From Squalus acanthias (taxonomy: Eukaryota): a DNA stretch of 64,000 bases. Of this stretch, positions 3,855-64,000 are shown piece after piece (the first letter of the stretch is position 1; every line of letters starts with the position of its first letter). The position numbers and the translations under genes were made by a program. The stretch covers positions 35,588,001 through 35,652,000 of the forward strand of contig CM059449.1 of assembly GCA_030390025.1 (NCBI GenBank), read 5' to 3'. The notes under the pieces were generated by a model. That model was not told the DNA's origin, did not search any database, and saw only the letters and a program-made list of their open reading frames with translations.

Positions 3855-6060
3855 GCAAAATACTGCGGATGCTGGAAAACTGAAATAACAACAGAAAGCG
3901 CTGGAAAAACTCAGCAGGCCAGGCAACAGCCGTGAAGAGAGAAACAGAGTTAACGTTTCAGGTCGAAGACCCTTCGTCAGAACTAAGAAAAAAGCCGGAC
4001 ATGAAACAGATGAAGTTGGAGGCTGGGGGAAGGAGTAAAAGAACAAAAGGGGAGGTCTGTGAGGAGTAGAGCCATTAAGAGATGCTCAAGGCGAGACGAG
4101 ATGGTAATAGGACAGGTTAAGAAACAAAAGATGGCTCACAAGTGTGAAATGCGCTGGCAGAATGAAAGACAGCTGCCATGGGGGAGAGAGAAAAAAAAAG
4201 AGAAAAGGCACAAACCAAATGTCAGGATAAAAATATCTATATATGGTAGGGGCCGAGGATATGATCTGAAATTGTTTAACTCGATATTGAGTCCGGCAGG
4301 CTAAAAATGCCTAATCGGAAGATGAGGTGCTGTTGCTCGAGCTTACGCTGAGGTTCCGTGGAACAAGGCAAGAGGGCGAGGATGGTGAGGTCTGAGTGGG
4401 CGTGGAGCGGTGAATTAAAATGACAAGCGTCCGGAAGCTCGAGGTCACCCTTACGGACTGAATGGAGGTGTTCCACAAAGCGGTCACCCAATCTGCGTTT
4501 GGTCTCCCCAATGAAGAGGAGACCACATCGTGAGCAGCGAATACAGTATACTAGATTGCAAGAAGTACAAGTAAATCGCTGTTTCACCTGGAAGGGGTGT
4601 TTGGGGCCCTGGAGAGTGGGAAGGGGGGAAGTATAAGGGCAGGTGGTGCATCTCCTGCGCTAGCACGGGGAGGTGCTGGGCGAGGGGGAGGGGGTGCTGG
4701 GGTGATAGAGGATTGGACTAGGGTGTCTCGGAGGGAGCGTTCCCTATGGAATGCTGAAAGGGGAGGTGAGGGGAAGATACATTTGGTGGTGAGATCACGT
4801 TGGAGGTGGCGGAAATGGCACAGGATGAACCGTTCAATGTGGAGGCTGGTGGGGTGAAAGGTAAGGACAAGGGGAACTCTATCATGGGTCCGGGAGGGAG
4901 GAGCCGGGTTGAGGGCAGAAGTGCGGGAGATAGTATGGACACGGTCGAGGGCCGTGGCAACCACGGTAGAGGGGAATCCTCGGTTGAGGAAAAAGGAAGA
5001 CATGTCAGAAGCACTGGTATAGAAGGTGTCATCGTCGGAGCAGATGCGGCGGAGACGGAGAAACTTGGAGAAGGGAATAGAGTCCTTACAGGAGGCGGGG
5101 TGGGAGGAAGTGTAGTCCAGGTAGCAGTGGGAGTCAGTGGGCTTGTAGTGAATGTTGGTCAATAACCTATCCCCAGAGATGGAGACGGAGCAGTCGAGGA
5201 AGGGAAGGGAAGAGTCGGAGATTGACCATGTGAAGGTGAGGGAAGGGTGGAAATTGGAGGCAAAGTGAATGAAATTTTCTAGTTCAGGGCGAGAGCAGTA
5301 AACGGCATCGATACAGTCATTAATGTACCGGAAAAAGAGTTGAGGGAAGGGACTCGAGTAGGACTGGAACAAACAGTGTTCCGCATATCCCACGAAAAGG
5401 CAAGCATAGCTAGGACCCATGCGGGTACCCATAGCAACACCTTTGATTTGGAGGAAATGAGTGGAGTCAAAGGAGCAGTTGTTCCATGTGAGAACAAGTT
5501 CAGCCAGGTGGAGGAGGGTGCTGGTGGATGGGGACTAGTTGGTCCTCTGTTCAAGGAAGAAGCGGAGCACCCTCAGGCCGTCCTGGTGGGAGTTGGCGGT
5601 GTAGAGGGATTGTATGTCCACAGTGAAAAGGAGACAGTTGGGGCCAGGAAACTGGATACTCTTAAAGTGGCGGAGGGCGTCAGAGGAGTCGCGGATGTAG
5701 GTGGGAAGAAACTGGAAAAGGGGAGAAAAAATGGAGTCGAGATAGGAAGAGATAAGTTCCGCGGGGCAAGAACAGGCTGAAACGATGGGTCTACCAGGGC
5801 AGTCCTGTTTGTGGATCGTGGGAAGGATGTAGAAGCGGGCTGTGCGTGGTTGGTGCGTAGTGCGGTCATGGTCCAGGTGGAGGTAGGAGGAGGGGTCGGA
5901 GAGTCGGCGTTCAACTTCCGCTAGGTTGAGGTCGGTTCGCCAAACAACAACAGCACCACCCTTGTCAGCAGGTTTAATGACAATGTCGGGTTTGGATCTG
6001 AGAGAATGGAGTGCTGCAAGTTCAGGGGGGGGGTAGGCTGGAGTGAGTGAGGGTAGCAGA
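3855..6060 (-). mobile_element. Penelope-like retroelement (RT plus GIY-YIG endonuclease), frameshifted and 5'-truncated
   Basis: ORFs 5535-6140 (IKPADKGGAVVVW, PGRPIVS, VDIQSLYT), 4584-5432 (MGTRMGPSYA, FFRYINDC, LPFLD, YKPTDSH) and 4276-4587 (LVYCIRCSRCGLLFIGETKRRLGDRFVEH = GIY-YIG). The pseudo-LTR with a hammerhead is at 3855-3990. Confidence 0.92.
3948..3984 (-). ncRNA. Minimal type I hammerhead ribozyme in Penelope pLTR
   Basis: Minus strand reads AGTT-CTGACGA-AGGGTCTTCGACCT-GAAA-CG-TT-AACT. This gives a CUGANGA/GAAA core, a stem II hairpin, a palindromic ACGU stem III, a UH site and a 4-bp stem I (AGUU/AACU). Confidence 0.8.
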
Positions 6061-9655: not shown

Positions 9656-10304
9656 CTCATGGGGTTGGGAATACAGCAGAAATTTGACGCCAATTCATCG
9701 GCAATTCCACTCAAAGAGGTCACCTGATGGCTGGATTTGGAAATGGGAACCTGCTACACTGGTGCTGCCAGGATACCCTCCTGTTTGTGGGTCTTTGTGT
9801 ACCGCGGTGCTTTCCTCTGCACAAACCTTACCTGCGAGTGATTCGGGCTGACAATGGCTGCGTGAAATGAGAAGGGATCCAGTCCCGAGCACCAGTAGCC
9901 CTCACCTTGATCACCAAGATGAAGAAAACTTGAAGCACTAAAACACATGTCTTTTTTTCAATATGTGTTTAACATTATCATACAAGGGCGTGACCAAGAA
10001 ATGCAAATCTTGTATTTATTAAAAAATAAAATAGACATACCATCAAAGGAACTCGGTTGTTCAATGTTTAGTAAAGTGAAGCCCAGTTTAGGATTGCTCT
10101 GTTCATTGGTCTGATGTGTCGTCGATGCCGACGGCACCAGTAATTACTGCACCACAAACAACAACTGTGAATGCTCAAGTCCGTGAAGGATCTCCAATAG
10201 TTAATTTAGATCTTACAAAGACTATGTTGTAAAAATATCAACGTGGCATTCGAACTGTTGTCATTGTGATGGTTGCATTACCATTGGGATGGAAAGTATC
10301 CCCT

Positions 10305-10430
10305 AATCACTATTGTTCCAAGGGCAGGTACTTAATATGCTTATTCAAATAACTGGAGCTAATGTCCATTACTGTGTGATGTAATTATCTCAGCAGACCC
10401 CTCTCAGATATATATAAGGGCTTCATCTGA
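10305..10430 (+). promoter_or_regulatory. Proximal promoter of GPCR pseudogene A (TAATTA homeodomain site, O/E-like site, TATA)
   Basis: TAATTA 10382-10387, TCTCAGATA 10402-10410 and TATATAA 10411-10417, about 70 nt before the ATG. Alignable with the upstream region of paralog B. Confidence 0.6.
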
Positions 10431-10486
10431 AGATATCTCGTCTGTGGGTCGTTAACACCAACAAGCTACGCTGCTTCTCATCGAAA

Positions 10487-10556
10487 ATGGGACGTCCAAT
10501 ACTTGCACAGATAGAAGAAATTTACTACCCTATTCTCGCGCTGCTTGGTGCTCCTG
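10487..10556 (+). pseudogene. GPR139-like class A GPCR pseudogene A, exon 1 (MGRPILAQIEEIYYPILALLGAP)
   Basis: ATG at 10487, 70 nt, phase-1 donor CTG|GTAAGT. Same length and highly similar to the exon at 61732-61801. Confidence 0.9.
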
Positions 10557-13500
10557 GTAAGTCACTATTCTCAATTACTGGTTATCTTTGCCAGTGTTTA
10601 ACTGTCCTACTGCTCTTTCTTCCTATGTGATAATGGCATCTGATCATTCTGATCTATTCTCTGTATAGCTACTTTTAATGGTATCAGTTAGATGACAAAC
10701 GTGCTTTCAAGTTCCCACATATTGTTTTAAATGAATCAGATCAGAGAAAATACGACTTGCTCTGATCTTTCAAAATCAGCATTCCTACCGATTTTATTCC
10801 ATTGCAATTTTGTGCTGAATAGTCCTCTGGTTGGCAGGTTGAAGGGAGGCAAGACTGGCGCCCGCCCACTGCACTGCCAACACTAACCTGCTGAAGCTTC
10901 CTCCTGGAGTCCTCATTGGTGATACAATGTTTATTGTGTTAACGCAGCTCCTTACTGGCTCCCCGCTATTAGGAGCGAGCGACATTTAGTGTTGATGCAA
11001 TTTTTAAAAGGTTGAAGCTAATTAAAGAGGGATATCACTTTTGGAGCTGCAGGAAGCACAACTGCCCGAGTGCCTTGAAGGGGCCGGAGGCTCAGGGCTG
11101 GGGGTCAACAGCAGGAAGGCGCTCAGATTGTCAGATGTATCTGTGAAGCTGTTGCTACTTGAAGCCATTGCGAGAAGAGATTTGAAGGGTTTTCTCCTTC
11201 CACTGGCGGGTTTGCGGTGTGGTGGTCCGAACGCTACTAGGGACATTTTAACTTTGGGCGATACTGTAAAATGATTGATATCGGAGGGGCCACCCATTCT
11301 ACATCTCCCCCAATTCCCCTTTGCATTGACTTGGATTTTGTCTGCAGGAGGTTGTAGAAAAATTCCTTTGTGATGCTTCACTGCAAGAGAGTCCAAACTG
11401 GCCTGTTCTATCTCCTCCTCATAACATGGGAATACTGAGATTCCCATTGGGAAATGCATGTGCCCAGTCAATACTGTACATTCTGCAGAGCTGTCTAAAA
11501 GGAGCACAAAAACTCCAGACAGAACCTCCAGAGAACCAAACAGTTAAAATCAACAGGCAGGCAAAGTAACAGCAAACCTCAGCACTAGCAAACATAATGG
11601 CATGCTCAATGTGGAGTGGCCTCAGGGAACCAGTCTGCAGGTAATATCACCCTTATATAGTGCTGGTGACAAATGGGATCGCGTTTGGGGCAAATGTTGC
11701 GGACAATGGGAGTCCTGTTGACTTTGGGTTATAATGTAAAATGTGTGATATCGAATTTTCCGCTAATTATAGGTCCTCCCTATTTCCAATCCATCGACTT
11801 CAATGGAAATTGAATTTGGGCCTGGCCTATAATGGGCAGTGAATCACATATCGCTCATTTTACGCTGAGCCCCAAAGTTAAAGTTACCTCCCAATTCAAG
11901 AGTTTTTCATCCCCGCTTTCCCCTATTTAAAGATAATCAAATGCCTTACAGGAGGTAGTAGAGGCGGGGACCATCACTGCTCCATTTTACCGAGTTTTTA
12001 GCACAAACATGACCCTAATTCAGAATAAAATCCAGCCTCCTGGGGTTAGTTTATCTTTGGCCTCAGAGAAATGAAGCTCCGGGAGGAGTGTATAAAGGGC
12101 GGCCCATCCGATATCATTACTTTTACACGAGCGCCGAATGTCAAACCCGACCCCTTGTGTCCAGACCGAGTGTTAGAATCCCACCGGGAACAGATCATGC
12201 CGAGCTCGCAATTTTTATAATTTTCAGGTTGGATGAGAAACAACAATTTGCCTATGACTCCCCGGTACTAACCACTGTGGATCATTGCACTGCAGCAAAC
12301 TCGGAAGGTGTATATCTGTGGAATGTGCTCCCTGGGCAGCGCCGATGCAGCGCCAGCAATCCGTGTCCCATCACTAGTTCTTTTACCAATCGCCCCAGGT
12401 TGTTTTTAGATTTGGCAGCAACATTGCAAGTGAACTAACTGTTGTAAATTGATTAAAGCGTTTATACAGGTCATTCCTGAATTCCCACCTTTCTACTAAT
12501 TAGAATGTACTATATTTCATGGAGTACAAATCTGGTCTGGTACATTTCATGGATCCCGCTGCCGAGGTGTGGAGCGCTCTGACTCTCGGGCTTTGTGTAG
12601 ATGCCCTACAATCCAGTTTGAAATATTTTGATATCACTTTAGGCCAGAACAACGACTCACTCAGAAACTTAACTTATGGGCGTCAACACCAGGATAACAC
12701 CTTGCTGGATCTTTGAATATGTTTGCTTACAAGACAGGACTGAATATTACGTGGTGATTAATATTATTACACTATTACACATTACAATGCAAAATCACGA
12801 AGGTTATTTGCAAAAAAAGGAAAATAAAGATCTGTAAGTCCGATTTATAGTATCTTTGATGTAATCTGTAAACAAGACATCGAATCTGTACGGGTGGTGT
12901 TATGAAGTATGTGTGTTCACTGATTTGTATCTAAAGTTGTTGTGTGCAAATAAATGCCAAATGATTGACTTAAGTTTTAGAAGTTACCGATTTCCAAAAG
13001 TTATTGGGGCAGATTTTGTGTTGGCTATGACAGCGTACTCTGACAGTATGCCATCACACCGCCTTTAAAATATACCACAAGGTCAGTATTTCCGCATGCA
13101 CTTGCACTAAATCCAGAATTTGCCATCTGTCAAGGTGCGCAACATACGGCCCGATATATGTGTGTACATATTGTCGATCGAGTTTCATTTTAATTACTTG
13201 GAAAGTTGGATAAGAAACTTAAATAAAGCGAACACCTATCAGATTTCAGTAACGAATATGTCCTTTTCGCTCAAACATGAACAACATAACAAGCAATATA
13301 ATGCAATATTAACAAGAACATAAATTTAACTATTACCAGTCTAAATGAGGTCTGAATAATATATTTTAAGCCTGAAAGTTAACATTGAATATATGGCTGG
13401 TAATCTCTATCTGAAATTCAGCAACATTACTTGTACCAGTGATAGATTGTTACTGAGTATCACAGCAGGAAGTTGTATAAATATCGACTAAAAATTTTTG

Positions 13501-14007: not shown

Positions 14008-14897
14008 CCAACTTGGTCAAAATTGTGATTCTCTTCCGGGGAAAACGCGGCCACTCCATGTAAATCACTATTTACCTGGTGGCCATGGCATTGGCCGATC
14101 TGCTGGTCCTGATATTTGGCGGGGTCCTGTATGAGATGAAAGCAATTTATTTCCCGGATTCATTCCTGGACTACACTCCGGTCTGCAGTCAGAATGTCTT
14201 CCTTATTTATGCTTCTATTGAATGTTCTGTCTGATTAACTGTCGCTTTCACCTTTGATCGATTTGTCGCCATTTGTTGCCAAAAAATAAGAACTCAATAT
14301 TGCACCGAAAAAACTGCGGCAGTGGTTGTAGCAACGATATCGGGGCTGAGCATTTTTGAAAATTTCCCAATGTACTTTATTTTAGTACCTCGCGCAATAA
14401 TTGACAATATACCGTAGTTCTGTGAACTGAACTCAAAACTCTATACTGTACATATAAGGGTTATATTCTTATGGCTTGACATAGTTTAAATCCCTTTTAT
14501 TCCTTTTCTTTTGTTTTTGATATTCAATGGTCTGACCATCAGGCAATTTCTACTGAAAAGTAGAATCAGGAGGGATCTCCGGAGAATCGACAGTGACCCA
14601 GAAATGAACAACCGCAGGAAATCCATCGTTTTACTGCTGGCCATATCTGGCAGTTTTATCCTGTTATAGATGGTAAGTTTAATTCATTATATATCTGTAC
14701 AAATTATGGATATTCAATACTTGCACACAGACTGCAGTAATCCGTTCAACATTTTGGAACAAACTGGATATATGCTGCAGAATATGAGTCCTTGCACAAA
14801 TACCATCATTTATGCAGTGTCCCAGACTAAATTCAGAGTGGAGTTAAAGAATCTGATTCAATATCCCTTGTCTGTAATTACTAAGTTAGGGAAATAA
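14008..14897 (+). pseudogene. GPR139-like class A GPCR pseudogene A, exon 2 (TM1-TM7)
   Basis: Acceptor TTGCAG|CC. Translation includes ANLVKIVIL..YLVAMALADLLVL..LTVAFTFDRFVAICC..YCTEKTA..DPEMNNRRKSIVLLLAISGSF..CTNTIIYAVSQTKFR. In-frame stops at 14061, 14232, 14415, 14487 and 14667; no frameshift. Confidence 0.92.
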
Positions 14898-15877: not shown

Positions 15878-16803
15878 GAAATTCATATATCCAAATTTGC
15901 CGACGACACAAAATAGGTGGAATTGTAGGCAGTGTAGATGGAAGCATAACATTGCAAAGGGATATTGACAGATTAAGTGAATGGGCAAAACTGTGGCAAA
16001 TTGATTTCAATGGAGGCAAATGTGAGGTCATTCACTTTGGACCTAAAAAGGATAGAACAGGATACTTTCTAAATGGTGAATTCTACAAACAGTGGAGGTC
16101 CAAAGAGACTTGGGGGACCATGTACATAGATGATTAAAATGTCATCAACAGGTACAAAAAATATTCAAAAAGGCTAATGGGATGCTGGTCTTTATATATA
16201 GAGTTCTAGAATACAAGAGGGTTGAACTTATGCTGCAGCTGTACAAAACCCTGGTTAGACCGCACTTGGAGTACTGTGAACAGTTCTGGGCACCACATCT
16301 TAGGAACCATTTATTGGCCATGGAGGGAGTGCAGCGTAAGTTTACCAGAATGATATCCGGACTTCAAGGGTTAAGTTACAAGGAGAGATTGCACAAATTA
16401 GGGTTGTATTCCCTAGAATTTAGAAGGTTAAGAGGTGATCTGATCGAAATTTTCATGATATTAAGGGATACAGAAAGGGTAGACAGAGAGAAACTATTTC
16501 CACTGGATGGGAATTCTAGGCCTAGGGGGCATAGTCTAAAAATTAGAGACAGACCTTTTAGGAGTGAAATTAGCAAATACTTCTACACACAAAGGGTGGT
16601 GGAAGTTTGGAACACTCTGCCGCAAACGGCAATTGATGCTAGAACAATTGTTAATAGTAAATCGTAGATTAATAGCTTTCTGTTAACCAAAGGTATTAAG
16701 GGCTATGGTGTAAAGGTGCATATATTGAGTTAGGTCGCAGATCAGCCAGGGTCTCATTTAATGGCGGATCAGGCTTAATCCTCTTCCTATGTTCATATGT
16801 TCC
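15878..16803 (+). mobile_element. CR1-type LINE, 5'-truncated (RT C-terminus plus 3' tail)
   Basis: ORFs 15952-16137 (QRDIDRLSEWA..FNGGKCEVIHFG) and 16182-16667 (LYKTLVRPHLEYC, RRLRGDLIE). Confidence 0.9.
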
Positions 16804-19344: not shown

Positions 19345-20728
19345 CTAGGCTGATAGTAGTAGGGAAAATGCTAGAGTCTATTATAAAGGATGTGATAACA
19401 GGACACTTAGAAAATATCAACGGGATGAGACAAAGTCAACATGGATTTATGAAAGGTAAATCGTGTTTGTCATACCTACTGGAGATTTTTGAGGATGTAA
19501 CTGGTAGAATAGATAAGGGAGAACCAGTGGATGTGGTGTATTTGGATTTTCAGAAAACCTTTGATAAAGTCCCACATAAGAGGTTAGTGTGCAAAATTAA
19601 AGCACATGGGATTGGGGATAATACACTGGCATGGATTGGAAATTGGTTAACAGACAGGAAACAGAGAGTAGGAATAAATGGGACTTGTTCGGGGTGGCAG
19701 GCGGTGACTAGTGGGGTACCGCAGGGATCAGTGCTTGGGCCGCAGCTATTCACAATATAAATCAGTGATTTGGATGAGGAAACCAAATGTAATATTTCCC
19801 AGTTTGCTGACGACACGAAACTTGGAGGGATTGTGAGTTGTGAGGAGGATGCAAAGAGGCTTCAAGGCGATTTAGGCAAGTTGATTGAGTGGGCAAATAC
19901 ATGTCTGATGCAGTATAACGTAGATAAATGTGAAGTTATCCACTTCGGTAGGAAAAACAGAAAGGTAGAGCATTATTTAAATGGTGATAGATTGGGAAAT
20001 GTTCATGTACAAAGGGACCTGGGTGTTCTTGTACACCAGTCACTGAAAGCAAACATGCACGTGCAGCAAGCAGTTAGGAAGTCAAATGCTATGTTGGCCT
20101 TCATTGCAAGAGGATTTGAGTACAGGAGGAAGGATGTTTTACTACAGTTATACAGGGTCTTGGTGCGACCACACCTGGAGTACTGTGTGCAGTTTTGTCT
20201 CCTTACGTAAGAAAGGATATACTTGCCATCGAGGGGAGCAACGAAGGTTCACCAGACGGATTCCTGGGATGGAAGGACTGTCGTATGAGGAGAGATTGGT
20301 TTGACTAGGCCTGTATTCATTAGAGTTTAGAAGAATGAGAAGGGATCTCATTTAAACGTATTAAATTCTGACAGGGCTAGAAAGACTGGATGCAGGCAGG
20401 ATGTTTCCCCTGGCTGGGGGGGGGGGGGTGTCTAGAACGAGGGGTCACAGTCTCAGGATACCGGCTAGGACATTTAGGACTGAGATGAGGAGAAGTTTCT
20501 TCACTCAGAGGGTGGTGAACCTGTGGAATTCTCTACCACAGAAGGCTGTGGAGGCCCAGTCACTGAATATATTTAAGAAGGATATAGATAGATTTCTAGA
20601 TGCAAAAGTCATTGGGGGTATGGGGAGAGAGCGGGAATATGGTATTGAGATAGAGGATCAGCCATGATTATATTGAATGACGGAGCAGTCTCGATGGGCC
20701 GAATGGCCTATTCCTGCTCCTATTTTTC
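19345..20728 (+). mobile_element. CR1-type LINE, 5'-truncated RT
   Basis: QHGFMKGKSCL, VDVVYLDFQKTFDKVPH, SGVPQGSVLGP, FADDTKLG, LVRPHLEYCVQF, with stops and frameshifts. Confidence 0.93.
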
Positions 20729-54329: not shown

Positions 54330-56966
54330 GTCATAGTATCATAGAATGGTTACAGCACGGAAGATGGCCATTCGGCCCGTCGAGCCCGTGCCGACTCTCA
54401 GCTAGTCCCACTCCCCTGCCCTTTCCCCGTAGCCCTGCATTGTTTCCTTCAGATACTTATCCAACTCACTTTTGAAAGATAAAATTGAGTCTGCCTCCAC
54501 CACCCTTTCAGGGAGTGCATTCCAGATTTTAACCACTCGCTGCGTAAATAAGCTCTTTCTTCCATCGACTTTGGTTCTTTTGCCAATCACCTTAAATCTG
54601 TGTCCTTTGGTTCTCGACCCTTCTGCCAATGGGAACAGTTTCTCTCTATCTACACTGTCCAGGTCCCTCATGATTTTGAACACCTCTATCAAATCTCCTC
54701 TTAAACTTCTCTGCTCCAAGGAGAACAACCCCAGCTTCTCCAGTCTATCAACGTAACTGAAGTCCCTCATTCCTAGTATATTTTCTGCCTTTTTAACTGC
54801 TTTCTCAACCTGCCCTGCCACCTTCAACGATTTATGCACACAGCCCCGCAGGTCTCTCTGTTTGTACACCACCTTTAGGATTGTACCATTTAGTTTATAT
54901 GTCCTCTCCTCATTCTTTCTAACAAAATGCATCACTTCACACTTTTCTGCGTTAACTTTCATCTGCCACATATCCACCCACTCCACCAGCCTGTCTATAT
55001 CATCCTGAAGTCTATCACTCTCCTCGTCACTGTTCACTGTACTTCCAAGTTTTGTATCAAATGCAAATTTTGAAATTGTGCCCTGCACACCCACGTCCAA
55101 GTCATTAATATATATCAAAAAAAGCAGTGGTCTTAGAATCGACCCCTGGGGAACACCACTGTATACCTTCCACCAGTCCGATAAACAACCGTTCACCACT
55201 ACTCTCTGTTTCCTGTCACTTTGCCAATTTCTTATCCATGCTGCCGCTGTCCCTTTCAGTCCATGGGCTTCAATTTTGCTGGCAAGCCTATTTCGTTGCA
55301 TTTTGTAGAACGCCTTTTGGAAATCCATGTACATTAGGTCAACCACATTACCCTCATCAACCATCTCTGTTACCTCAGCAAAAAACTCGATCAAGTTGGT
55401 TAAATACGATTTGCCTTTAACAAATCCGTGCTGGCTTTCCTTAATTAATCCACCCCTATACAAGTGATTTGATTTTGTCCCTGATTTCTGTTTCTGAAAG
55501 CCTCCACACTACCGCGGTTAAATTGACAGGCCTCTCGTTGCTGGGTTTAACTTTACACCCTTTTTTGAACAATGGTGTAATATTTGCAATTCTCCTGTCC
55601 TCTTGCACCACCCCCGTATCTATGGAGGATTGGAATATTATGACCAGTACCTCTGCGATTTCCACCCTGAATTTCTTCAGCATCCTAGGATGCACCCCAT
55701 CTGCTCCTGGTGATTTATCTACTTTAAGTACAGCCATCCTTTATAATACCTCTTCTTTATCAATTTTCATCCTATCAAGTGTCTCTACTACCTCCTCCTT
55801 CACAATGTCTATGGCAGCATCCTCTTCCTTGGTAAAGACAGATGCAAAGTAATCATTTAGTACCTCAGCCATGCCCTCTGCCTCCATGTGTAGGTCTCCT
55901 TTTTGGTCCCTAATACCTTACTATTTCTTACTTCGGTGCTCTCTGCCTCTCCCCATCCTTTGATCACTTTATTTCCGCTTTCTAATGTTACATCCCGGTG
56001 CCCATCTCGCTGCCAAATTAGTTTAACCCCCCCCCCCACCCCAACAGCACTAGCAAATCTCCCCGCAAGGATGCTGGTCCCGGCCTTGTGGAGGTGCAAC
56101 ACGTCTGGCCTGCACAGGTCCCACCTCCCACAGAACCGGTCCCAATGCCCCAGGAATCTGAAGCCCTCCCTTATGCACCAACTCTCCAGCCACACATTCA
56201 TCTGCTCTATCCTCCTATGTGTATACTCACTCGCACCTGGCACCAGGAGTAATCCGGAGATTACTACCTTTGAGGTCCTGCTTTTTAATCTCTTTCCCAG
56301 CTTCCTAAAATCTACCTGTTGGACCTCATCCCTCTTTCTACCCATGTCGTTGGTACCAATATGGACCACGACCTCTGGCTGTTCATCCTCCCCCCTCAGA
56401 ATGTTCTGCAGCCGCTCAGTGGCATTTTAACCCTAGCACCAGGGAGGCAACACAAAATCCTAGAGTCACGTCTGCGGCCGCAGAAACGCCTGTCTGCTCC
56501 TCTAACTATCGAATCCCCTGCCACTATTGCTCTCCCACTCTTCTTCCGCACCCTCTGTACAGCTGAGCCACCCGTGGTGCCGCGGACATGGCTCTGGCTG
56601 TACTACCCAGAGGAACCAATGCCCTCACCAGTACTCTGAACAGAATACTGGTTGGAGAGCGAGATGCACTCAGGGGACTCCTACACTACCTGTCCTGGTC
56701 CTGCTTTTCGCTCTGGCGGTCACCCAATACTCCTTAGCTGCGGAATGACGACCTCCTGAAATGTGCTATCCAAGTAGTTCTCAGCCTCGTGGATGCACCG
56801 GAGTGACGCCAGCTGCTGTTCAAGGTCCGAAACCCGGAGCTCGAGCTCCTCCAGCTGACGGCAACTTCTGCACACGTGGTTGTCCAGGACACAGGAAACG
56901 TCCTGGATTGCCCACATGGCACTGGATGTGCACTCTGTGGGACTGAGCTGCCCTGCCATGCCTCCA
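54330..56966 (-). mobile_element. CR1 LINE with ORF1 (zinc finger/leucine zipper plus esterase) and RT; endonuclease region deleted
   Basis: 56720-56959 CRSCRQLEELELRVSDLEQQLASL; 55857-56369 VHIGTNDMG; 55456-55737 KSPGADGVHPRMLK; 54402-55463 RT motifs. ORF1 joins the RT-upstream region directly at about 55920-55960. Confidence 0.92.
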
Positions 56967-58073: not shown

Positions 58074-60750
58074 TTTTTTATTCGGTTACGGGATGTGGGC
58101 GGCGTTGGCAAGGCCAGCATTTGTTGCCCATCCCTAAATGCCCTTGAGAAGGTGGTGGTGAGCCGCCTTCTTGAACCGCTGCAGTCCGCGTGGTGAAGGT
58201 ACTCCTACAGTGCTATTAGGTAGGGAAGGTTTTCCAGGATTTTGACCCAGCGACGATGAAGGATCGGCGATATACTTCTAAGTCAAGATGGTGTGTTTCT
58301 TGGAGCAGAACTTGGAGTTGGTGGTCTTCCCATGTGCCTGCTGCCCTTGTCCTGCATTTGGGAGGTGCTGCCGAAGAAGTCTTGGCGAGTTGCTGCAATG
58401 CATCTTGTAGATGGTACACACTGCAGCCACGGTACGCCAGTGAATGTTTAAGGTGGTGGATGGGGTGCCAATCAAGCGGGCTGCTTTGTCCTGGATGGTG
58501 TCGAGCTTCTTGAGTGTTGGTGGAGCTGTACTCATCCAGGCAAGTGGAGAGTATTCCATCACACTTCTTACTTTTGCCTTGTAGATGGAGGAAAGGCTTT
58601 GGGGAGTCATGAGGTGAGACACTCGCTGCAGAATACCTAGCCTCTGACCTGCTCTTCTTGTCACAGTATTTATGTGGCTTGTCCAGTTAAGTTGCTGGTC
58701 AATGGTGACCCCCAGGATGTTGATGGTGAGGGATTCGGCGATGGTAATGCCATTGAATGTCAAGGGGCTGTGGTTCGACTCTCGCTTGTTGGAGATAGTC
58801 ATTGCCTGGCACTTCTGTGGCGCGAATGTTACCTGCCACATATCAGCCCAAGCTTGAACGTCGTCCAGGTCTTGTTGCATGCGGGCATGGAATGCTTCAT
58901 TATCTGAGGAGTTGTGAATGGTGCTGAACACGGTGCAGTCATCAGCGTACATCTCCATTTCTGACATTATGTTGGAGGGTAGGTAATTGATGAAGCAGCT
59001 GAAGATGGTTGGGCCTAGGACACTGCCCGGCGGAACTCCTGCAGCGATGTCCTGAGGCTGTGATGATTGACCTTCCACCACGATCTTCCTTTGTGGTAGA
59101 TATGACTCTAGCCAATGGAGAGATTTCCCCCCGATTCCCATTGACTTCAGTTTTACACGGGCACCTTCCTGCCACACTCGGAGAAATGCTGCTTTGATGT
59201 CAAGGGCAGTCACTCTCACCTCACCTCTGGAATTCAACACCTTTATCCATATTTGGACCAAGGCTGTAATGAGGTCGGGAGCCGAGAAGTCTTGGCGGAA
59301 ACGAATAAGGCATCAGTGAGCAGGTTATTGCCGATGAGACTTTCCATCACTTTGCTGATGATTAAAAGTAGACTGATCGTATGGTAATTGGCCGGATTGG
59401 GTTTGCCCTGCTTTTTGTGGACAGGACATGCCTGGGCATTTTCCACATTGTCGGATAGATGCCAGTGTTGTAGCTGTACTGGAACAGCTTGGCTAGAGGC
59501 TCGGCTAGTTCTGGAGCACAAGTGTTCAGTACCATAGGCGGGATGTTGTCGGGGCCCATAGCCTTTGCCGTATCCAGTGCGCTCAGTTATTTCTTGATAT
59601 CACGTGGAGTGAATCGAATTAGCTGAAGACTGGCTTCTGTGATGATGGGGACCTCAGGAGTAGGCCGATATGGATCAGCCACTCGGCACTTCTGGCTGAA
59701 GATGGTTGCAAACGCTTCAAACTTGACTTTTGCACTCACGTCCTGGACTCCACCATTATTGAGGATGGGAATATTCTTGGGACCTCCTCCCCCGTTAGTT
59801 GCTTAATGATCCACCACCATTCATGACTGGATGTGGCAGGACTGCAGAGCTTTAATCTGATCCGTTGATTGTGGGATCGCTTAGCCCTGTCTATAGCATG
59901 CTGCTTCCGCTTTTTAACATGCTTGTAGTCCTAGTTGAAGCTTCCCCAGGTTGGCCCCTCCTTTTTAGGTACGCCTGGTGCTGCTCCTGGCATGCTCTTC
60001 TACATTCCTTACTGAACCAGGGGTTGGTCCCCTGGCTTGATGGTAATGGTAGAGTGAGAGATTTGCCAGGCCATGAGGTTACAGATTGTGGTGGAATACA
60101 TTTGTGCTGCTGCTGATGGCCCACAGCACCTCATGGATGGCCAGTTTTGAACTGCTAGATCTGTTCTAAATATATCCCATTTATCACGGTGGTAGTGCCA
60201 CACATGGAGGGTGTTCACAGTGAGAAGACGGGACTTCGTCTCCACAATGACTGTGCGGTGGTCACTGCTATCAATACTGTCATGGACAGATGCATCTGCG
60301 ACAGGTAGATTGGTGAGGACGAGATCAAGTAGGTTTTTCCCTCGTGTTGGTTCTCTCACCACCTGTCGCAGGCCCAGACTGGCAGCTATATCCTTCAGGA
60401 ATCTGCCAGCTCGGTCAGTAGTGGTGCTACCGAGCCACTCTTAGTGATGGACATTGAAGTCCCCACCAATAGTATATTCTGTGCCGTTGCTACTCTCAGT
60501 GCTTCTTCCAAGTGGTGTTCAGCATGGGGGAGTACTGATTCATCAGCTGTGGGAGGGCGGTAGGTGGAAATCAGCAGGATGTTTCCTTGCCCATGCTTGA
60601 CCTGAAACCATGAGACTTCATTGGGTCTGGAGTCAATGTTGAGGAATCCCAGGGTCACTCCTTCCCGACTGTATACCACTGGGCCGCCACCCCTGGTGGG
60701 TCTGTCCTGCCGGTGGGACTGGACATACCCAGGGATGGTGATGGAGGAGT
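58074..60750 (-). mobile_element. CR1/L2-group LINE ORF2 (APE endonuclease plus RT), decayed
   Basis: LISTYRPP, PTRGKNLLDLVLTN, MGPDNIP, ALDIKAAF, GSVLGP, YADD, KCQAMTI, with the 3' tail at 58074-58150. Confidence 0.9.
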
Positions 60751-61540: not shown

Positions 61541-61680
61541 AATCATTGTAGTAAAAGCAGCTGCCTGATCTGTTTGTTTAAAAGACCGTAAGTAATGTCA
61601 GTTATTGTGTAACCTAATTGTCTCACTTGAGATTTCTCTGAGATATAAATAAAGGATTGGATTGAAGCGGCTTCATCTTC
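61541..61680 (+). promoter_or_regulatory. Proximal promoter of GPCR gene B (TAATTG, O/E-like site, TATA)
   Basis: TAATTG 61615-61620; TCTCTGAGA 61635-61643 (reverse complement TCTCAGAGA fits YYYCARRRR); TATAAAT 61644-61650. Alignable with promoter A. Confidence 0.62.
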
Positions 61681-61731: not shown

Positions 61732-61801
61732 ATGGATCGACCAATCCTTGCCCAGATTGAAGCGGTTTACTACCCGATTCTCGCAGTGTTTGGTGTTCCT
61801 G
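61732..61801 (+). CDS. GPR139-like class A GPCR gene B, exon 1 (MDRPILAQIEAVYYPILAVFGVP)
   Basis: GAGATGG Kozak context, 70 nt, phase-1 donor CTG|GTAAGT. The YY...G.P|AN junction in TM1 is typical of GPR139/142-type genes. Confidence 0.92.
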
Positions 61802-63480: not shown

Positions 63481-64000
63481 CGAATTTATTCACAATTGTG
63501 ATTCTCTCCCGTGGAAAGTGCGGTCTCGCCACATGCATCACTCGATACCTGGTGGCCATGGCAGCAGCAGATCTACTGGTCCTGATATTTGATGTAATTC
63601 TGTATCAGATTAAAGAGATTTATTTCCCAAATTCATTCCTGGACTATACTCTCATCTGCTGTCTCAATCTCAGCCTGGCATTTTCTGCCACTGATTGTTC
63701 TGTCTGGTTAACCGTCGCCTTCACCTTTGATCGATTCATCGCCATTTCTTACCCGAAACTGAGAGTCAAATATTGCACCGAAAAAACTGCGACTGTGATT
63801 ATAACAACGGTGTGTGGTTTGAGCCTTTTACAAAACATTCCATTTTACTTTGTAAGTGAAGCTGGTGAAATAATTGATAACATACAATGGTTCTGTGCTG
63901 TAAAATCTACCTTCTACACCTTTCCCATTTGGATGGCTTATCTCTGGCTCCAAATTATTTTAACCCCACTCGCTCCATTCGTGTTCATTGTACTGCTCAA
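63481..64000 (+). CDS. GPR139-like class A GPCR gene B, exon 2 (partial; runs off the window)
   Basis: Acceptor TTTTATTGCAG|CG, then an open frame ANLFTIVILSRGKCGLATCITRYLVAMAAADLLVL..CSVWLTVAFTFDRFIAI..YCTEKTA..NIPFYF..WFC..LTPLAPFVFIVLL with no stops. Missed by the ORF track because there is no stop inside the window. Confidence 0.93.

What the first reader, a model, noticed from the sequence alone, without database searches (positions are those of the whole stretch)
61541..61680. Olfactory-receptor-like promoter (homeodomain + O/E + TATA) conserved between the two GPCR paralogs
Seen: about 120 bp upstream of each TATA box aligns between paralogs. A reads TAATGTCCATTACTGTGTGATGTAATTATCTCAGCAGACCCCTCTCAGATATATATAA; B reads TAATGTCAGTTATTGTGTAACCTAATTGTCTCACTTGAGATTTCTCTGAGATATAAAT. 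B has TAATTG and a perfect YYYCARRRR on the reverse strand; pseudogene A has TAATTA and an 8/9 match on the forward strand. Established: paired homeodomain (Lhx2/Emx2) and O/E (EBF) sites are the hallmark of vertebrate odorant receptor promoters. Inference: this GPCR family may be expressed in olfactory or other sensory neurons as an unrecognised chemoreceptor family. The motifs are short, so chance matches are possible.
Basis: partly seen in the sequence, partly recalled or inferred. Interest (0 to 1): 0.7.

Follow-up and report, generated by a model that had tools for sequence, protein, structure and literature searches.

The report
Smell-gene-style promoter, giant shark receptor family
This short DNA block is the likely shared on-switch of a family of well over a thousand little-studied shark receptor genes; it resembles the switches of mouse smell-receptor genes, so the family may be an overlooked set of chemical sensors, but where the genes are active is untested.

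Summary
The block is real. It sits upstream of two members of an elasmobranch family of GPR139-like class A GPCRs with 1,784 exact TM3-motif matches in this assembly (pseudogenes and duplicate contigs included). Across 29 promoter types a different, fixed module appears. A forkhead-type site lies near -73 (23 of 29 exact). An EBF-like pseudo-palindrome starts 21-23 bases above TATA (25 of 29 within 2 mismatches, against 2.7% of background TATA sites). An abutting homeodomain word is kept in 12 of 29; B has the 2-base spacer of a mouse Lhx2/Ebf enhancer probe. Pocket positions are hypervariable (pN/pS 1.58 in one of four subfamilies). No expression data were obtained. Olfactory chemoreceptor family about 0.5; other sensory 0.25. 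The scan noted the same family and a similar promoter earlier on other DNA; those notes are not support.

The parts
61571..61578 (+). Forkhead-type site (TRTTTRYT), 73 bases above TATA of gene B
   Evidence: Exact in 23 of 29 promoter types vs 0.6% of 1,895 background TATA sites; column conservation 0.91; consensus and factor name recalled
61593..61597 (+). Upstream homeodomain-type core (TAAT, about -50)
   Evidence: TAAT present in -62..-40 in 23 of 29 types; A-T rich region, no background computed for this word
61615..61620 (+). Homeodomain word TAATTG, 2 bases before the EBF-like site
   Evidence: Exact TAATTR in 9 of 29 types, within 1 mismatch in 12; same 2-base spacer as the Sfaktiria composite probe
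61623..61632 (+). EBF (O/E)-like pseudo-palindrome, 21 bases above TATA; family profile Y C M C N N G R R R
   Evidence: Within 2 mismatches of TCCCYNGRGA in 25 of 29 types; best match starts at -21 in 21, -22 in 7, -23 in 1; profile
61635..61643 (-).
   Evidence: 6 of 27 B-like promoters; 3 of 114 distinct family promoters
61644..61649 (+). TATA box of gene B, 88 bases above the ATG
   Evidence: used as anchor, so its conservation (0.96) is partly by construction
61732..61801 (+). Gene B coding exon 1 (23 codons plus one base, phase-1 GT donor)
63481..64000 (+). Gene B exon 2 (7tm_1), open; continues past the window to 302 codons
10338..10414 (+). Paralogous module of gene A: degenerate forkhead site 10338-10345, TAAT 10360, TAATTA 10382-10387, EBF-like 10388-10397, TATA 10409
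10487..10556 (+). Gene A coding exon 1
14008..14897 (+). Gene A exon 2, pseudogene with 5 in-frame stops

Best explanation
The block is the likely proximal promoter of a very large shark-and-ray family of GPR139-like receptors, predicted to be bound by a forkhead factor, a homeodomain factor and EBF just above a TATA box, which would switch each gene on in olfactory sensory neurons as a chemoreceptor repertoire. Shown: the two-exon gene anatomy, family size, the fixed order and spacing of the sites across deep clades, their higher conservation than flanks, and pocket variability. Inferred: promoter function (no start site mapped), the identity of the factors, and an ancestral homeodomain+EBF composite later lost in two large subfamilies. 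Untested: tissue, sparse one-receptor-per-cell expression, ligands. Because the whole switch is about 80 bases and lies within 100 bases of the ATG, each duplication would carry a working promoter with it, which would help explain the expansion.
For: Family: 1,784 exact TM3-motif matches, 0 for the reversed control, against 82 family C first-exon matches and 5 V1R/ORA matches. The 120 listed homologues that carry a name are all from sharks, rays and skates (117 of 120 named). They form one clade (SH-aLRT 97, quick tree). Module: strict Fox-EBF-TATA pattern 285 hits vs 0 control. Of 19 sampled hits, 15 lead straight into a family exon 1, 2 have an insertion in the 5' UTR, and 2 are unresolved but lie in a family cluster. 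EBF-like 25 of 29 vs 2.7% background; at most 4 of 29 in any of 18 other windows. Conservation: Fox 0.91 and EBF-like 0.72 vs 0.44-0.53 upstream and 0.51 in the 5' UTR. In the B subfamily the module differs by 0.064 vs synonymous 0.185. The conserved letters are the symmetric C.C..G.G core, and separate lineages reach near-perfect EBF palindromes (L093, L155, L165, L204). Rival motifs fit worse: NKX2 exact in 8 of 29, E-box in 10 of 29; the C.C..G.G core is exact in 16 and within one mismatch in all 29. The homeodomain word is present in basal and both main clades, with the 2-base spacer of the EMSA-tested mouse composite (PMC5608512 supplementary file 7). Mouse OR enhancers carry homeodomain, O/E and Foxj2 sites (PMC5318403 passages). 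pN/pS at 25 pocket positions is 1.58 / 0.88 / 0.83 / 0.53 vs 0.26-0.39 on the intracellular side in four subfamilies. In catshark the V2R co-receptor labels a moderate share of neurons while TRPC2/Go label all (PMC10116579 sections 6, 8), which leaves room for another family (inference).
Against: No expression evidence. The 29 promoter types are homologous, so they show one ancestral design kept by selection, not 29 independent cases. The -26..-8 window was chosen after looking. Only 1 of 29 sites matches the O/E core exactly, 4 of 29 have 3 mismatches, and the EBF register shifts by 1-2 bases between clades. The adjacent homeodomain word is lost (2 or more mismatches) in 17 of 29 types, including two large subfamilies. 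A generic version of the module was not found around 30 V2R-like first exons (91 kb), 4 ORA genes (55 kb) or the two single-copy relatives (40 kb), though it also finds only 13 of 29 family types. One V2R-like lineage (13 of 29 promoters) has TAATT abutting an O/E-like word, but with another spacer, and the word also resembles a STAT site (recalled); this is one post-hoc case. Catshark olfactory neurons are microvillous and do not express ORs, the family that Lhx2/Ebf drive in mouse (PMC10116579). EBF and forkhead factors act in many neurons, B cells and mesenchyme (recalled). pN/pS exceeds 1 in one subfamily only; these are uncorrected pairwise counts with a recalled pocket list and motif-anchored numbering.
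Confidence: 0.5

Rival explanations
1. The same promoter drives the family in other chemosensory or somatosensory cells (taste buds, solitary chemosensory cells of skin and gill, ganglion neurons), as a functional counterpart of mammalian MRGPRs or bitter receptors.
For: Family size and pocket diversification say sensory repertoire, not which organ. MAS1-type receptors are reported absent from cartilaginous fishes (PMC8455134 passage). The module is not seen at V2R-like or ORA genes. EBF factors are used in many sensory neurons (recalled).
Against: The homeodomain word abutting the EBF-like site at the mouse composite spacing, plus a Fox site, matches olfactory enhancer grammar specifically.
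Confidence: 0.25
2. The family is an immune or other non-neural sensing repertoire (EBF plus forkhead as in B-lineage or mesenchymal genes), diversifying against microbial or parasite peptides.
For: EBF1-FOXO1 cooperation in B cells is recalled (search returned nothing). Birth-and-death clusters with variable pockets also mark immune receptors. GPR139 relatives are peptide receptors (PMC12208981 passages).
Against: E-box and NF-kB consensus fit poorly. The adjacent homeodomain word and TATA box fit a neuronal receptor promoter better (inference).
Confidence: 0.15
3. The similarity is plain paralogy of a TATA core promoter and the transcription-factor names are pattern-reading; the -21 element is bound by something else or nothing.
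For: The 5' end of the intron is also conserved (0.65). Most sites are degenerate.
Against: Short blocks at fixed spacing stay conserved across clades whose proteins are about 48-59% identical to B while flanks decay. The conserved letters are the palindromic ones.
Confidence: 0.1

Closest known systems
Mouse Greek Island OR enhancers: Lhx2/Ebf composite motif (PMC5608512; passages and supplementary files 2, 6, 7, 8 read); J element (PMC7804114, passages)
   Same: Homeodomain word followed after 2 bases by a pyrimidine-then-purine EBF-like site; Fox-type site nearby (PMC5318403, passages)
   Different: Here it is in each gene's own proximal promoter, 21 bases from TATA, rather than in intergenic enhancers; the homeodomain half is lost in 17 of 29 types; binding untested
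Mouse OR promoters (PMC3247239, passages incl. Table 1)
   Same: O/E-like site, homeodomain words and a TATA box near the start of genes of a huge clustered GPCR family
   Different: Mouse sites are enriched but not reported at one fixed offset, and TATA is called in 39% of promoters; here the spacing is rigid and the Fox site is the best-kept element; the receptors are not ORs
Human GPR139 (PDB 7vug)
   Same: Best solved-structure match of B (E 4e-10); source of the automatic names
   Different: Distant relative only. Two single-copy vertebrate paralog lines and a salamander gene were placed in the tree; human GPR139 itself was not in the tree
Shark V2R/OlfC, TAAR and ORA repertoires (PMC10116579 abstract and sections 6, 8, 13; PMC6368271 passages)
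   Same: Clustered receptor family with lineage-specific gain and loss
   Different: Those surveys mined only the four known families (65 chemosensory genes in catshark); this family is class A, unrelated, and far larger in this assembly

Membership tests
OR-type promoter/enhancer (Lhx2 + O/E) | O/E-like site near the start, enriched over background | tested here: met
   25 of 29 types within 2 mismatches vs 2.7% of 1,895 background TATA sites; homologous sequences, window chosen post hoc
OR-type promoter/enhancer (Lhx2 + O/E) | Homeodomain site adjacent to O/E at the composite spacing | tested here: inconclusive
   TAATTR within 1 mismatch in 12 of 29; full composite at spacer 2 within 1 mismatch in 6 of 29, at spacer 0 in 4 of 29
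OR-type promoter/enhancer (Lhx2 + O/E) | Bound by Lhx2/Emx2 and Ebf, and needed for expression in olfactory neurons | not testable with these tools
   No binding or reporter data
Vertebrate odorant receptors (OR), TAAR, V1R/ORA, V2R | Sequence membership of one of these families | tested here: not met
   Pfam gives 7tm_1 (plus a weak Srx hit), not the OR, V1R or class C models; nearest structure GPR139
Olfactory chemoreceptor family (functional sense) | Large clustered repertoire with birth and death | tested here: met
   1,784 motif matches on many contigs; intact and broken copies side by side
Olfactory chemoreceptor family (functional sense) | Diversified ligand pocket, conserved intracellular face | tested here: met
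   Pocket pN/pS above intracellular in 4 of 4 subfamilies, above 1 in 1 of 4
Olfactory chemoreceptor family (functional sense) | Sparse expression in olfactory sensory neurons; response to external ligands | not testable with these tools
   No usable RNA run (see Tried and rejected)
GPR139 orthologues | High identity to human GPR139, single copy | tested here: not met
   Only E 4e-10 over 126 residues; multi-copy elasmobranch clade

The most novel reading that the evidence does not exclude
Sharks and rays have a fifth, overlooked olfactory receptor family of many hundreds of genes, derived from GPR139-like peptide receptors. Each gene carries its own miniature Fox-homeodomain-EBF enhancer fused to the TATA box, so the mammalian Greek Island grammar predates the shark-bony fish split and was co-opted by an unrelated receptor family. 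The supposedly tiny shark olfactory repertoire would then be one of the largest.
Probability: 0.45. Interest if true: 0.92.

Novelty: new variant of a known kind. Interest (0 to 1): 0.72.

Why it matters
Current surveys conclude that cartilaginous fishes smell with a few dozen receptors (PMC6368271, PMC10116579) and are poor in GPCRs (PMC8455134). A class A family with over a thousand loci, a diversifying pocket and an olfactory-enhancer-like promoter would overturn that. One RNA-seq remapping or in situ experiment can test it. The 80-base module is also a compact natural construct for asking how single-receptor choice is encoded.

Tried and rejected
Expression: no RNA holder was listed for exon 2 of B. 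Three coded runs of guessed RNA laid at 80% likeness gave short paralog pieces on exon 2 and repeats, and no exon 1-exon 2 joint; tissue unknown, so uninformative either way. Three unnamed assembled homologues begin at the intron boundary, so they show no splicing. The catshark organ-expression supplement (PMC11979771) could not be read and may bear directly on the tissue question.

NKX2, E-box, RBPJ, STAT, BANP and NF-kB consensus words (all recalled) were rejected as family-wide explanations of the -21 element.

ORA promoters could not be located: the DNA just above the coding exons looks like intron or intergenic sequence and no start site is known, so only a blind 10 kb scan was made. The class C cluster on C5 is called V2R-like from Pfam ANF_receptor and 7tm_3 hits, its size (60 of 82 matches) and recalled exon features; name look-ups failed. 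The careful tree did not finish; the quick tree is used, with long branches near the salamander gene.

Literature: searches listed no paper describing this family; subscription journals are not covered. PMC11643329, PMC10620051 and PMC3247230 (passages) added nothing. No structure prediction was run.

Full report
What is in the window. Two paralogous two-exon class A GPCR genes lie on the + strand. Gene B has its ATG at 61732, a 70-base coding exon 1 with a phase-1 GT donor, and an open exon 2 from 63481 that runs to 302 codons beyond the window. Gene A has the same anatomy (ATG 10487, exon 2 from 14008) with 5 in-frame stops. Pfam gives 7tm_1 and the best solved structure is human GPR139 at E 4e-10. 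The upstream regions align over 102 bp at 68.6%, and the quoted strings are there.

YYYCARRRR (the finding's consensus) occurs 120 times in the window against 123.5 in shuffles; TAATTR followed within 30 bases by it occurs 4 times against 2.6. B's perfect reverse-strand site next to TATA is in 6 of 27 B-like promoters and 3 of 114 distinct family promoters. Two paralogs cannot carry the claim, so I tested the family.

The family. The B protein gave 150 scored matches, mostly on C26. A divergent database relative gave 106 others on different contigs. A tight TM3 pattern has 1,784 exact matches and 0 in the reversed control; this includes pseudogenes and probably uncollapsed haplotypes. For scale, a class C first-exon pattern has 82 matches and the V1R model 5. 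Of 129 exon 2 copies read, 118 are open for 285 codons or more, a sample biased to best hits. The 117 named proteins among the 120 best database homologues are all from sharks, rays and skates, most auto-named probable GPR139. In a quick tree of 66 proteins they form one clade (SH-aLRT 97), next to a salamander gene and apart from two single-copy vertebrate paralog lines that this genome also has. Those two genes share the intron position but not the promoter module. Human GPR139 was not available for the tree.

The module. Exon 1 was found in 161 of 200 loci examined. Of these, 160 were anchored on TATA (114 distinct sequences) and collapsed to 29 types at 80% identity; one anchor was corrected by hand. 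Against the O/E core from PMC3247239 Table 1 (passages), 25 of 29 types match within 2 mismatches in -26..-8. The best match starts at -21 in 21 types, -22 in 7 and -23 in 1. Background is 2.7% of 1,895 other TATA words, and no other 18-base window exceeds 4 of 29. The ungapped profile reads Y C M C N N G R R R, with the mirrored C and G positions most conserved. A forkhead-type word near -73 is exact in 23 of 29 against 0.6%. Column conservation is 0.91 (Fox) and 0.72 (EBF-like) against 0.44-0.53 upstream, 0.51 in the 5' UTR and 0.65 at the intron start. A strict pattern has 285 genome-wide hits and 0 control hits. Of 19 sampled hits, 15 lead directly into a family exon 1, 2 have an inserted element in the 5' UTR, and 2 are unresolved inside a family cluster. 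NKX2 and E-box words fit exactly in only 8 and 10 of 29. Caveats: the types are homologous, the window was chosen after inspection, the strict pattern was built from the family, and only one type matches the O/E core exactly.

Comparison with mouse olfactory elements. The EMSA-tested Sfaktiria composite has TAATTG, two bases, then a degenerate EBF site (PMC5608512 supplementary file 7). The paper says the composite's EBF half tolerates pyrimidine and purine stretches at a fixed spacing (passages). B has that geometry. An adjacent TAATTR is exact in 9 and within one mismatch in 12 of 29 types, spread over basal and both main clades, and lost in 17, including two large subfamilies. I infer it is ancestral. 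Mouse OR enhancers also carry Foxj2 sites (PMC5318403 passages). In this genome one V2R-like lineage, 13 of 29 promoters examined, has TAATT abutting an O/E-like word (0.6% in shuffles), but with another spacer, and it is a single post-hoc case. The full module was found 0 times around V2R-like first exons and ORA genes, with a pattern that finds 13 of 29 family types.

The receptors. Among 116 distinct intact exon 2 sequences, four subfamilies (13, 23, 25 and 10 members) have pN/pS of 0.83, 0.53, 1.58 and 0.88 at 25 pocket positions against 0.39, 0.36, 0.26 and 0.27 on the intracellular side. The numbering is motif-anchored and the pocket list is recalled. This is the pattern of a repertoire sensing varied ligands through one signalling route; it does not name the organ.

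Mechanism and odds. Most likely a forkhead factor, a homeodomain factor and an EBF dimer bind an 80-base module and recruit TBP, and each duplicated gene inherits the switch. Olfactory neurons are the best guess (0.5). In favour, catshark V2R co-receptor expression covers a moderate share of a neuron layer that is wholly TRPC2/Go positive (PMC10116579 sections 6 and 8). Against, the same paper finds ORs unexpressed and ciliated neurons absent (abstract and section 13). Other sensory cells (0.25), immune or non-neural cells (0.15) and over-read motifs (0.1) remain. Tissue is untested.

Novelty. Searches listed no paper on this family. The catshark genome paper has no GPR mention in its main text (supplement unreadable), and a 2025 GPR139 review has no shark mention. 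Earlier notes of this scan reached similar readings on other DNA of this genome and on another shark; I wrote my reading before opening them, and they are not evidence. Verdict: a real, selectively kept promoter module with olfactory-enhancer-like grammar on a very large undescribed receptor family; interest 0.72.

Noticed in passing
L201, L203, L210 (upstream of exon 1): The Fox plus downstream AT-rich part of the module is tandemly repeated about three times in this clade, a possible natural multimer of the element.
   Followed up: no
L001-L027 versus L061-L073: B-type promoter plus exon 1 is 96-100% identical in 18 copies, while several attached exon 2 proteins are only 77-81% identical to B (e.g. 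C26:34.66 Mb, promoter 100%, protein 78%), suggesting conversion or exon shuffling of the 5' cassette.
   Followed up: partly
L164, L165 (G000:C7:151.3-151.4 Mb): Full module, one with a perfect EBF palindrome, but no recognisable family exon 1 or exon 2 within 9 kb (19 kb for L164); they lie inside a family cluster.
   Followed up: partly
L226-L241 (G000:C5:3.6-5.2 Mb): V2R-like promoters have a TATA box about 71 bases above the ATG and, in 13 of 15 of one lineage, TAATT abutting an O/E-like or STAT-like word 80-125 bases further up.
   Followed up: partly
L186/L192 (C17:37.41 Mb) and L187/L195 (C9:120.5 Mb): Two single-copy GPR139-like genes with orthologues in coelacanth, ray-finned fishes and (first one) amphibians and reptiles; no mammal or bird among the 120 listed hits of the first. 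Apparently distinct from GPR139 proper.
   Followed up: partly
window 10300-10580 and L031 (G000:C26:35.89 Mb): Pseudogene A has a twin 296 kb away with a 100% identical promoter and the same first stop; recent segmental duplication or assembly duplicate.
   Followed up: no
window 4584-5432, 16182-16667, 19368-19760, 54402-55364, 58278-59141: Reverse-transcriptase-like ORF fragments of non-LTR retroelements fill the space between the two genes (identification from recalled motifs).
   Followed up: no
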